The notes: generated by a model not told the origin, from the sequence alone. A stretch of DNA of 63,706 nucleotides, filler included, from Collodictyon triciliatum (GCA_043381765.1; 15 parts of 15 records of this genome joined end to end with filler, not necessarily neighbours in it), one strand, 5' to 3'; shown: positions 6,419 through 8,331, counted from the first letter of the whole stretch. Numbers and translations: made by a program.

Positions 6419-8331
6419 ATTAAAATAGCTTTGTTGAGTATATTTTTAGCGCTGATAAAGTCCCTTGTCAAGAAAACACTTTGTTTGCTTTCTGAGCGAT
6501 TACATTCTTTACATAAGACATCTATATACCTTTTTTGAATTTCCTTTCAGTTTCATATATTCCAGGTCTTTTTCGCAGTTACAACATATCTTGGAGGTTC
6601 TAAATTCATTTACAATAAATGTTTCAAAACGTTTGGGTAGTACCATTCGTAATCCTCTTCCAATTGTTGCCATAAAACGCTTTCATCAGAGATTTTCTGC
6701 TCCAGTCTCCATACGCCAGTACAACATCCTTGCCAAATGTCTTTTCGATTCGGTCCATAAACAATTGCTCACTTCTTTTTATATTAACATACTGTCTCCA
6801 TGTCATCTTTCGAAAAAAGCTACGTGTTCATAAAATCTAGGAAGTTCTATCTGGTATCTTGATTTCTTAGATATATATTCCGAAATTTTTCATAATCGAC
6901 CGTGCATAAATTTTGTTTACTCAGTTCTGTCTCTAAATCGATTAAAGATACTCTTGATGTCTCAAACTGCTGATTCTCTTCAAAAGTCATGAGAACAAAA
7001 GAAAAAGCATTTTGTAAATCTGTTGCCATGCATATCCCTGAAGCGTTGTATTTTTTTTTTCTCGCGCAAGAGTATTTTGTGATTTTTAAGAAATTTGCTA
7101 TCATGTCTTCTTTGGGTGTCGCGTAGCATAATTTCTTACCTGTCTCATCCACCATGTAAACCGAATAAAACTTGCCTGCGTCCACTCCAACTATTTTTTT
7201 GTCGCTAATAAAGATAACTGCTCTTCGGAAAGGTCATCTGTATAGACATAATCTTGGGTTGTTTGATTATATTTGGATTTTGAATTTGAAAACTCATTCT
7301 TTTCAAACAATTTTTTTTTCCTTTATTCGATTCAAAGTGTAGCGAGGTTATGCCATATTCTTTTCAAACAATAATGAAACCGCCAAGCCGTCTGTTTGTA
7401 TAATGTATTTAAAATTGTAGTCTCTTTGATGAAAGACCCTCTTCTTCATTTCAAAGAACTTATCCCATAGGGTCTCTTTGCATCCTGATATATTCTTCAG
7501 TAATATTGTTTTTCCAGTTAATGCTAATAGATCTATCAAACATGCAGTATCTAGAGTAATATGTCATGGTGTATTGTTAGTTCTTATAGAGATTGGTTGG
7601 AATAGTTTGGTTCAAATGTCCTCAATAATGCGATTCATGTAAATCACACATGGAATGTACTTATTTGGATTGACTTTGACGATATATTTGATACCATTTA
7701 GAATATCGCTGGGAATGGTATGATGCAAATGTATTTTAGCCCATTTATTTTGTTCCGGTATTTCGAGTTTCGTGAAGATGACTTTTTTTTTTTTAACTTT
7801 CGTAACTCTGCCTTTTTAACAGCTTCCGTAATATTCTCATTTTAGGAACTTTTTGATTTATAAAGCACAGTAACCACTTTGCAAAATGTTCCTTAATGTT
7901 ATTATGATAAGCTGTTAACACTTGCTTCGCCAAGTACGGCAATACATGAGACAGTCCAACCAACAGAAAGCGTTCTTCTTGGGACAAAAGGGATCGAAAA
8001 TCATTGAGATAAAAAAAGTCATCATGTCATCGCTTATATCTGATATTTTAATTTTGCAGGTCTATCTTGTAGAACTTTTCCAACTGTCATTAAAGCGAAA
8101 AAAAAAACATTTCATCGATTGTTTGGAGCTGTTGTGATTTCAATATGTAACATCCTGCAAACAGATAAGTGTCGGTAACCAAATTATGACACAATAAAAC
8201 CGTATCGTTGATTTTTTTTTTTAATAGTCATCCGCATTCTTTACAATCGACTTTAGAGATGTTTTCACATTTTGATAGTGTGGTTTTACAGACTTTAGAT
8301 TCTCAGACTCAAGACGTTTTCTTTTCTTCAT
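6419..8331 (-). pseudogene. Fanzor1 (eukaryotic/giant-virus TnpB-like RNA-guided nuclease), frameshifted pseudogene, 3' end lost in gap
   Basis: Manual cross-frame reconstruction from ATG 8331: MKKRKR...YQNVKTSLKSIVKN...INDTVLLCHNLVTDTY...LPYLAKQVLTAYHNNIKEHF...FQPISIRTNNTP*HITLDT...IQTDGLAVSLLF...DDLSEEQL...IVGVDAGK (RuvC-I D, 7180-7182)...LAYGDWS...GLR...VNEFRTSKICCNC (E, 6605-6607, plus Zn pair 1)...CKEC...TRDFISAKNI (RuvC-III D, 6460-6462). Several stops, homopolymer frameshifts and a LINE insertion. Confidence 0.9.
7296..7372 (-). mobile_element. 45-bp 5'-truncated LINE insertion (7312-7356) with 16-bp target-site duplication, inside the Fanzor
   Basis: ATTCTTTTCAAACAAT occurs at 7296-7311 and 7357-7372. 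The insert T8CCTTTATTCGATTCAAAGTGTAGCGAGGTTATGCCAT matches the LINE 3' ends at 33699 and 55809. The minus strand ends in AATAAA plus an A-tail. Confidence 0.92.

What the first reader, a model, noticed from the sequence alone, without database searches (positions are those of the whole stretch)
6419..8331. Hidden Fanzor1 RNA-guided nuclease element in a protist genome
Seen: five short minus-strand ORFs plus the untranslated stretches between them join into one protein of about 610 aa or more. It carries IQTDG, RuvC-I GVDAG, a GDWS motif, E in VNEFRTSKICCNC, a second CxxC, and RuvC-III RDFISAKNI. Established: this motif order, with Gly at the usual RuvC-II position and the catalytic Glu moved next to the zinc finger, is the Fanzor signature; the long N-terminal region fits Fanzor1. 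Inference: this is a dead copy of a probably uncharacterised family. All catalytic residues are retained, so a consensus could be resurrected and intact siblings may exist. No transposase is seen on the contig.
Basis: partly seen in the sequence, partly recalled or inferred. Interest (0 to 1): 0.92.

Follow-up and report, generated by a model that had tools for sequence, protein, structure and literature searches.

The report
Dead Fanzor1 nuclease gene copy
A broken, non-functional copy of a known transposon-borne RNA-guided DNA cutter (Fanzor1) sits on a small contig of an AT-rich eukaryote; it is real but ordinary.

Summary
Minus strand 8331->6419 is collinear with residues 1-593 of an intact 634-aa homolog, P0003 (tblastn E 6e-77; 258/575 identical codons). 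P0003 matches the solved Fanzor1 of Spizellomyces over almost its full length (E 9e-37).

The copy is more broken than described:
- about 15 frame changes
- two TGA stops and one possible TAA stop
- a 61-nt insertion that is a poly(A) retroposon tail with a 16-nt target duplication
- a 3' end lost in a 417-N gap

The window is a chain of unrelated ~4.5-kb contigs joined by spacers. "No transposase on the contig" therefore covers only 4566-9033.

Sibling copies are abundant. Between 146 and 454 short contigs in each of four public runs match at 80-99%. Many lack the window's stops, the insertion and several frameshifts. No intact sibling was seen.

The closest intact relatives lie on giant-virus contigs, inside 3.3-kb elements with terminal inverted repeats and a Tc1/IS630-type transposase. 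That arrangement has been known since 2013.

Verdict: a decayed member of a known kind, of low interest. The guide RNA region is not recoverable from this locus.

The parts
6419..8331 (-). Fanzor1 pseudogene: ATG at 8331-8329 down to the edge of the N run. Corresponds to residues 1-593 of the 634-aa homolog P0003.
   Evidence: tblastn E 6e-77 in six collinear segments. Frame-aware alignment gives 258/575 identical codons.
7174..7188 (-). RuvC-I motif GVDAG (catalytic Asp at 7182-7180).
   Evidence: Read. Aligns with GADPGK of P0003, the DPGK column of the family alignment.
6699..6710 (-). GDWS, with Gly at the canonical RuvC-II position.
   Evidence: family column YG(D/N)WS. Published signature in PMC10530073.
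6575..6613 (-). VNEFRTSKICCNC: the relocated catalytic Glu (6607-6605), the TS motif and the first CxxC of the zinc finger.
   Evidence: Direct PDB hit to Parasitella Fanzor1 9cf0, E 1e-5. Subthreshold Pfam PF07282, E 0.0025.
6439..6513 (-). Second CxxC (CKEC, 6513-6502) and RuvC-III motif RDFISAKNI (6465-6439; Asp at 6462-6460).
7387..7401 (-). IQTDG motif, conserved in the family.
   Evidence: Aligns to the TDG of SpuFz1 and PpFz1.
7312..7372 (-). 61-nt insertion. It consists of a 45-nt 5'-truncated retroposon tail (7356-7312, ending AATAAA..poly-A) plus one copy of a 16-nt target-site duplication (7296-7311 = 7357-7372).
   Evidence: Exact direct repeat (D7). Other copies of the tail lie at 33700-33744 and 55810-55853. 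Sibling contigs skip it, and this bin is about 8x deeper than the others.
7564..7566 (-). In-frame TGA stop, private to this copy.
   Evidence: Nearly all sibling contigs read the base that gives TGT (Cys) here (table 3). P0011 has Cys at this position.
7612..7614 (-). In-frame TGA stop.
   Evidence: Most sibling contigs read the base that gives GGA here (table 3).
6002..6418 (.). 417-N run. It hides the last ~41 codons, the expected guide-RNA region and the expected right end of the element.
   Evidence: The expected layout comes from the intact relatives, where the stop codon lies 15 nt before a 33-nt terminal repeat.
4566..9033 (.). The real contig that carries the relic. It is bounded by N44-TTAATTAATTAA-N44 spacers and ends in microsatellites.

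Best explanation
Window 8331->6419 (minus strand) is one decayed copy of a multi-copy Fanzor1 element.

**What the intact protein does.** Fanzor1 is the eukaryotic, transposon-borne descendant of bacterial TnpB. From established knowledge of the family, an intact protein binds a guide (omega) RNA transcribed from the 3' end of its own element. It then cuts double-stranded DNA that matches the guide. It uses a RuvC active site built from the Asp of RuvC-I, a relocated Glu next to the zinc finger, and the Asp of RuvC-III. For bacterial TnpB this cutting helps the transposon to be retained and copied.

**Why this copy cannot do that.**
- Its reading frame changes about 15 times.
- It carries two TGA stops that its siblings lack.
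- It was hit by a 5'-truncated poly(A) retroposon tail with a 16-nt target duplication.
- Its 3' end, with any guide-RNA region, is missing from the assembly.

**Shown here:** homology, collinearity, motif retention, the lesions, the existence of many sibling copies, and the transposon context of the closest intact relatives.

**Inferred:** the RNA-guided nuclease mechanism of the ancestral intact copy, and that this copy is silent.
For: **Collinearity**
- P0003 residues 2-593 match 8325-6424 in order (E 6e-77).
- The frame-aware alignment gives 44.9% identity over 575 codons.

**Family identity**
- Piece 6509-6682 hits PpFz1 (9cf0) at E 1e-5.
- Pieces 7354-7815 and 6624-6824 have SpuFz1 and PpFz1 as their top hits at collinear positions, though weakly (E 0.05-0.6).
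- P0003 hits SpuFz1 (8gkh) over residues 14-607 at E 9e-37, plus PpFz1 and GtFz1.
- P0001 hits GtFz1 at 6e-11.

**Motifs.** D..TS-xx-C4..RD plus the Fanzor1 Gly and Glu are all present. They match the published definition (PMC3627910; PMC10530073).

**Decay**
- The lesions are listed.
- Only 5 of the 15 frame-change sites lie within 12 nt of a homopolymer of 7 or more bases.
- At both TGA stops, most sibling contigs read the bases that give TGT and GGA.
- Some sibling contigs carry indels at or near six of the window's frame-change sites: 6513, 6680, 6813, 7115, 8011 and 8212.
- Some sibling contigs skip the 61-nt insertion (table 5).
- Sibling protein fragments P0173 and P0174 (78-79% identical) read through the frame changes near 6879 and 6826.

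**Family size.** 1633 relatives at E<=1e-3. In the four runs laid, 449, 454, 173 and 146 contigs lie on the stretch.
Against: - Pfam scans of 12 separate pieces gave only one subthreshold hit (PF07282, 18.4 bits against a cutoff of 26.3).
- The 128-aa piece 6847-7233 found no Fanzor chain in the PDB.
- No guide RNA, terminal repeat, target duplication or transposase can be shown for this copy. "Element" therefore rests on the protein gene alone.
- Five of the frame changes sit near long A or T runs and could be assembly errors rather than mutations.
- The frame-aware alignment was guided by one homolog, so the positions of the frame changes are approximate. At least one (placed at 6985) more likely lies in the A10 run near 7055.
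- At 80% likeness, some contigs from the two metagenome runs may come from other organisms.
Confidence: 0.9

Rival explanations
1. The gene is alive. On this view the frame changes are homopolymer or assembly errors, or unusual decoding, in a fragmented draft assembly.
For: Five of the 15 frame-change sites lie within 12 nt of A or T runs of 7-12 bases. Sibling contigs differ in length at two of these runs (8212 and 7783). All catalytic residues are retained.
Against: - Ten frame changes lie away from long homopolymers.
- Two in-frame TGA codons sit where most sibling contigs read the bases that give TGT and GGA.
- A retroposon tail with a 16-nt target duplication sits inside the coding sequence, and some sibling contigs lack it.
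- Reading TGA as sense would not remove the frameshifts.
Confidence: 0.03
2. The relic is a piece of endogenised giant-virus DNA, or a transposon delivered by a giant virus, rather than a long-resident host transposon.
For: - The closest intact full-length relatives (the P0003 group) lie on IMG/VR giant-virus contigs of 57-254 kb, next to viral genes such as ribonucleotide reductase, capping enzyme and helicases.
- A quick tree puts the relic plus P0011 in a 10-row clade with that group (SH-aLRT 98).
- The nearest Atlas clusters of P0003 are Nucleocytoviricota.
- GC content is similar: relic 0.33, viral loci 0.32-0.34.
- Bao and Jurka proposed viral spread of Fanzors (PMC3627910).
Against: - Identity to the viral proteins is only about 45%.
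- The nearest relative, P0011 (53% identical), has mostly eukaryotic (Mucoromycota) clusters as its Atlas neighbours.
- The family is multi-copy in the runs laid, which fits a host-resident repeat.
- No viral gene lies on the 4.5-kb contig. A eukaryote-type PB1-domain exon lies beside the relic.
- No viral-type terminal repeat or transposase is present.
Confidence: 0.07

Closest known systems
SpuFz1, Fanzor1 of Spizellomyces punctatus (PDB 8gkh; Saito et al. 2023, PMC10432273)
   Same: It has the same domain order and the same motifs: DPxK-type RuvC-I, GDWS, the relocated Glu before TS-xx-CxxC, a second CxxC, and RD. The bridging homolog P0003 aligns with it over residues 14-607 at E 9e-37. 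Window piece 7354-7815 has it as top hit, but weakly (E 0.054).
   Different: The window copy is broken and lacks its 3' end. Direct similarity of single window pieces to SpuFz1 is weak. SpuFz1 is experimentally active with a known guide RNA, and no guide RNA can be read here.
PpFz1, Fanzor1 of Parasitella parasitica (PDB 9cf0)
   Same: It is the only solved protein hit significantly by a window piece on its own. Residues 6-48 of the piece match chain residues 1144-1187 across the relocated Glu and the first CxxC (E 1e-5).
   Different: The match covers 43 residues. The rest was compared only through weak hits.
Tc1/mariner-type Fanzor1 elements of giant viruses (PGv-1 and relatives, Bao & Jurka 2013, PMC3627910), and the metagenomic 3.3-kb elements in L001, L003, L006 and L010
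   Same: Their Fanzor proteins are the closest intact full-length relatives: about 45% identity and the same starred clade in the tree.
   Different: Those elements have terminal inverted repeats of about 30-33 nt and a divergent DDE_3+HTH transposase. Neither is detectable in the window. Only about 700 nt upstream and nothing readable downstream is held for the window copy.
Bacterial TnpB (IS200/IS605, IS607) and Fanzor2
   Same: They share the RuvC nuclease with a C4 zinc ribbon and the D..TS-xx-C4..RD constellation (PMC3627910).
   Different: Most TnpBs keep the Glu at the canonical RuvC-II position, whereas the window has Gly there and the alternative Glu (PMC10530073). All significant PDB hits are Fanzor1 chains. 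No IS607-type serine recombinase is present.

Membership tests
Fanzor1 | Motif D-X(125,275)-[TS]-[TS]-X-X-[C4 zinc finger]-X(5,50)-RD (Bao & Jurka 2013) | tested here: met
   Asp in GVDAG (7182-7180). About 197 codons further on comes TS-KI-C in EFRTSKICCNC, then CKEC, then RD 12 residues later. Readable only after frame correction. The motif text was read in PMC3627910.
Fanzor1 | Gly or Pro at the canonical RuvC-II position plus a conserved alternative Glu downstream (G500/E536 of Bao & Jurka; the 'rearranged catalytic site' of Jiang et al.) | tested here: met
   YGDWS at 6710-6699, with Glu of VNEF at 6607-6605 about 35 residues later. The same columns are conserved in 12 intact relatives. 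Literature passages were read.
Fanzor1 | Significant, collinear sequence similarity to experimentally characterised Fanzor1 proteins | tested here: met
   Direct: E 1e-5 to PpFz1, plus two weak collinear hits and one piece with no hit. Through the intact homolog P0003: E 9e-37 to SpuFz1, 7e-34 to PpFz1 and 7e-16 to GtFz1.
Fanzor1 | Intact open reading frame (a functional member) | tested here: not met
   About 15 frame changes, 2-3 in-frame stops, a 61-nt insertion, and a C-terminus lost in the N run.
Fanzor1 | Guide (omega) RNA encoded at the 3' end of the gene or element | not testable with these tools
   The region falls in the 417-N run 6002-6418. Rfam found nothing on the contig.
Fanzor1 | Residence in a eukaryotic transposon (terminal repeats, target duplication, or a transposase nearby) | tested here: inconclusive
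   No transposase remnant and no viral-type terminal repeat. Only 4.5 kb of true context exists, and one end is in the gap. Multi-copy status shows mobility of the family.
Fanzor1 | N-terminal nuclear localisation signal | tested here: inconclusive
   The N-terminus reads MKKRKR, and relatives begin with similar basic runs. No NLS predictor was run.
Fanzor1 | RNA-guided double-strand DNA cleavage | not testable with these tools
   This needs biochemistry, and this copy cannot be expressed as it stands.
Fanzor2 / IS607-type TnpB | Closest similarity to Fanzor2/IS607 TnpB, with an adjacent serine-recombinase TnpA | tested here: not met
   All significant PDB hits are Fanzor1 chains. No recombinase lies on the contig.

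The most novel reading that the evidence does not exclude
The relic may be one member of a large and fairly young Fanzor1 family in this host lineage. Hundreds of contig fragments at 80% to over 99% likeness occur in four public runs. The family is sister to a giant-virus-borne Tc1/IS630-Fanzor1 transposon. Intact, possibly active copies with their guide RNA may still exist in that host. If so, the family could record transposon traffic between giant viruses and their eukaryotic hosts and supply a new natural Fanzor1 ortholog.
Probability: 0.3. Interest if true: 0.45.

Novelty: new member of a known kind. Interest (0 to 1): 0.22.

Why it matters
It matters little by itself. Fanzor1 genes and their decayed copies are already known from fungi, protists and giant viruses (PMC3627910, PMC10432273, PMC10530073), and this copy can be neither expressed nor paired with a guide RNA.

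It has modest value as a pointer. It marks a multi-copy Fanzor1 family whose nearest intact relatives ride in Tc1/IS630-type transposons of giant viruses. The host lineage could therefore be mined for intact orthologs and used to study virus-host transposon exchange.

Tried and rejected
- **Whole-genome search for other copies:** no genome is held for this window.
- **Pfam on pieces:** nine pieces gave only one subthreshold PF07282 hit. Three further out-of-frame pieces gave none.
- **Word-index search with the 57-aa piece, longer proteins:** nothing found.
- **The search for related loci with the 15-row alignment A4:** returned an error as too divergent. I repeated it with P0003 alone.
- **Transposase remnant:** tblastn of the two viral DDE transposases against the window gave no hit better than E 0.9, and none on the contig. 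Pfam on seven flank ORFs gave nothing relevant.
- **Viral terminal-repeat core in the window:** 0 matches at up to 3 mismatches.
- **Rfam on the contig at E<=1:** 0 matches.
- **Sequencing runs:** no holder had a word share above 0.14, and no RNA holder was listed. Nothing can be said about expression.
- **Earlier findings by place and by sequence:** nothing.
- **TGA read as sense:** rejected. Most sibling contigs carry TGT and GGA at those codons, and the frameshifts would remain.
- **Introns instead of frameshifts:** not examined systematically. The homologous coding sequence continues directly across 1-2-nt offsets, which introns would not give.
- **Host group (protist or fungus):** not determined.
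- **Not used:** structure prediction and complex prediction. The sequence hits to solved Fanzor1 structures were enough.

Full report
**1. What the window is**

The 63,706-base window is not one stretch of chromosome. It holds 14 spacers, each made of 44 N, the six-frame stop linker TTAATTAATTAA (read at four of them) and another 44 N. Most lie 4,547-4,568 bases apart, at slowly falling intervals (palindrome I3). That is the signature of small contigs concatenated in order of size.

The finding lies on the contig 4566-9033. This contig ends in microsatellites and has an internal run of 417 N at 6002-6418. Genes beyond 9033 or before 4466, such as the LRR gene at 9311-9889, are not real neighbours. 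The only other recognisable feature on the true contig is a PB1-domain exon at 5200-5709 on the plus strand. No whole genome is held.

**2. The observation**

On the minus strand an ATG at 8331-8329 opens MKKRKRLE.
- IQTDG at 7401-7387
- GVDAG at 7188-7174
- GDWS at 6710-6699
- VNEFRTSKICCNC at 6613-6575
- CKEC at 6513-6502
- RDFISAKNI at 6465-6439

The last readable codon abuts the N run.

A profile built from a metagenomic fragment (P0001, found) and two window pieces was searched against 1.84 billion representative proteins. It found 1633 relatives at E<=1e-3. I ran tblastn of the 150 best, plus P0001, against the window. The 634-aa protein P0003 matched in six ordered segments, residues 2-593 against 8325-6424, at E 6e-77. 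Nothing else in the window matched.

My own frame-aware alignment of P0003 to the DNA gave 258 identical of 575 aligned codons, or 44.9%.

**3. What it is**

Window pieces searched directly against all PDB chains gave these results:
- 6509-6682 hits Parasitella parasitica Fanzor1 (9cf0) at E 1e-5, across the Glu-TS-CxxC region.
- 7354-7815, read with X at its two TGA codons, has SpuFz1 and PpFz1 as its two best hits (E 0.054 and 0.059).
- 6624-6824 has the same two chains as its best hits (E 0.32 and 0.58). All of these hits fall at collinear positions in the chains.
- The 128-aa piece 6847-7233 hit no Fanzor chain.

Pfam on the separate pieces gave only a subthreshold Cas12f1-like TNB hit (PF07282, E 0.0025).

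The intact bridge P0003 aligns with SpuFz1 (8gkh) over residues 14-607 at E 9e-37. It also aligns with PpFz1 (7e-34) and GtFz1 (7e-16). P0001 hits GtFz1 at 6e-11.

The published definitions are met:
- The Bao and Jurka constellation D-X(125,275)-[TS][TS]-X-X-C4-X(5,50)-RD, with the Fanzor1-specific conserved Gly and Glu (PMC3627910, passages read).
- The "rearranged" RuvC site, with Gly or Pro at the canonical RuvC-II position and an alternative essential Glu downstream (PMC10530073, passages read).

The same columns are conserved in 12 intact relatives aligned with the window pieces. This is a Fanzor1 gene.

**4. It is dead, and more broken than described**

The frame-aware alignment needs about 15 frame changes and passes in-frame TGA at 7614-7612 and 7566-7564. 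It also passes a TAA at 7844-7842 that lies in a poorly aligned stretch. The positions are approximate. The change placed at 6985 probably lies in the A10 run near 7055, because sibling fragments read the downstream frame as coding.

Only 5 of the 15 sites lie within 12 nt of a homopolymer of 7 or more bases. Homopolymer assembly error therefore cannot explain the state of the gene.

The stretch 7312-7372 is an insertion flanked by an exact 16-nt direct repeat (D7). Its 45-nt core ends in AATAAA and a poly(A) run. The core recurs on other contigs at 33700-33744, where a longer element body precedes it, and at 55810-55853. I read it as the 5'-truncated tail of an abundant poly(A) retroposon with its target-site duplication. 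That reading is an inference from this anatomy.

**5. Siblings**

A word-index search with the 128-aa piece found two short proteins, 78-79% identical, on ~630-nt contigs: P0173 from NCBI and P0174 from ENA. They read straight through the window's frame changes near 6879 and 6826.

No public run holds the stretch as a whole; the best word share was 0.14. I laid the contigs of four runs on it at 80% likeness or more. The numbers of short contigs placed were 449, 454, 173 and 146. In the first run, 82 were at 99% or better, 106 at 95-99%, 164 at 90-95% and 97 below 90%. Two of the runs are labelled with coded organisms and two are freshwater metagenomes.

In those contigs:
- At 7564, nearly all read the base that turns TGA into TGT. 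P0011 has Cys at this position.
- At 7614, most read the base that gives GGA.
- Some carry indels at or next to window frame changes: +2 behind 6513, -1 at 6680, -2 at 6813, +1 behind 7115, -2 at 8011 and -5 at 8212.
- Five contigs join 7291 to 7358 or 7359, skipping the insertion.
- The bin holding the insertion is about 8 times deeper than the others, with diverse loose ends. That fits a separate, more abundant repeat.

These are contigs, not reads, and at 80% likeness the metagenome contigs may include other organisms. Depth is not copy number. The family is multi-copy and the window's lesions are largely private to this copy. No contig is long enough to show an intact sibling.

**6. Relatives and context**

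Close relatives of P0003 (80-100% identical) were found on five IMG/VR contigs of 57-254 kb and on JGI metagenome contigs. Their neighbours include ribonucleotide reductase small chain, Hsp70, mRNA capping enzyme and helicases, which are typical giant-virus genes.

In L001 and L003 the Fanzor gene is preceded by a divergent 343-346-aa protein with DDE_3 and HTH domains. tblastn found that transposase next to the Fanzor gene in 10 of 15 loci: L001, L002, L003, L004, L006, L007, L008, L010, L011 and L015. L001/L008 and L003/L011 are the same contigs fetched twice. It was not found in L005/L014 (one contig), L009 (only 700 nt upstream is held), L012 or L013.

Homology between differently located copies covers about 3.3 kb and ends in terminal inverted repeats of about 30-33 nt. 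The Fanzor stop codon lies 15 nt before the right repeat. If the window's element is laid out the same way, its last 41 codons, its guide-RNA region and its right end all fall in the N run.

Nothing like the transposase or the repeat is detectable in the 700 nt upstream or elsewhere in the window. Rfam finds nothing on the contig.

I built a quick maximum-likelihood tree (LG+G4, SH-aLRT only) of 90 rows:
- the X-masked window translation
- P0011
- 8 locus translations
- the 80 of the 150 best representatives that are 560-800 aa long (the other 70 were left out)

It pairs the relic with P0011 (53% identity over 278 columns, support 95). It places both in a 10-row clade with the giant-virus group (support 98). 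The window row was framed using P0003, which may favour that placement slightly.

The nearest Atlas clusters are Nucleocytoviricota for P0003 and mostly Mucoromycota for P0011. Both carry DUF8286 (PF26935). These are leads only.

**7. Comparison with what is known**

- Fanzor1 in protists, fungi and giant viruses is published (PMC10432273, passage read).
- Association with Mariner/Tc1 elements, including in giant viruses (PGv-1), has been published since 2013 (PMC3627910; PMC10530073).
- The homing role of TnpB comes from the abstract of PMC10690162, as shown in the search listing.
- That Fanzor guide RNAs come from the 3' end of the element is partly recalled. I saw only the related statement for a TnpB in PMC10530073.
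- Earlier notes of this scan pointed me to the 2013 paper and to similar giant-virus elements.

**8. Verdict**

This is a real, correctly recognised but thoroughly decayed Fanzor1 copy: a new member of a known kind. It cannot be expressed, and its guide-RNA region is absent from the assembly.

The only points of some interest are that it belongs to an abundant family in its host lineage, and that the family's nearest intact relatives ride in Tc1/IS630-type transposons of giant viruses.

Interest 0.22.

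Noticed in passing
window 4466-4565, 9034-9133, 13597-13696 and on, 14 spacers: The window is a chain of small contigs joined by N44-TTAATTAATTAA-N44 spacers. Most spacers lie 4,547-4,568 bases apart at falling intervals, and most contig ends are microsatellites or homopolymer runs. Adjacency across spacers is not real.
   Followed up: yes
window 33682-33744, 55810-55853, 8506-8531 (and 7312-7356): These are copies of the 3' tail of an abundant poly(A) retroposon (...CTTTGAATCGAATAAAGG-poly-A). 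The copy at 33700-33744 is preceded by a longer element body. In the four runs laid, the bin holding this segment is about 8 times deeper than the Fanzor sequence around it.
   Followed up: partly
L001 6631-9952; L003 6625-9951; also L006, L010: A 3.3-kb transposon on giant-virus contigs. It has conserved terminal inverted repeats of about 30 nt, a DDE_3+HTH (Tc1/IS630-type) transposase, and a divergently transcribed intact Fanzor1 gene whose stop lies 15 nt before the right repeat. It is inserted in different viral gene neighbourhoods.
   Followed up: partly
window 35289-38595 (+): A protein-kinase ORF is followed directly on the same contig and strand by a Sel1-repeat ORF.
   Followed up: no
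window 41051-42125 (+), inside ORF 40265-43006: Eight tandem 135-nt units (86% matches) encode WD40 repeats inside a 913-codon open frame. This is a recently amplified repeat array within a gene.
   Followed up: no
window 30423-30858: A 126-nt tandem repeat (3.5 copies) in an LRR gene. Each unit seems to carry a GTAAGT-type intron start, so exon-intron units appear to have been duplicated together.
   Followed up: no
window 5200-5709 (+): A PB1-domain exon starts about 300 nt from the gap that cuts the Fanzor 3' end and is transcribed toward the relic. The relic may lie in an intron or just downstream of this gene.
   Followed up: no
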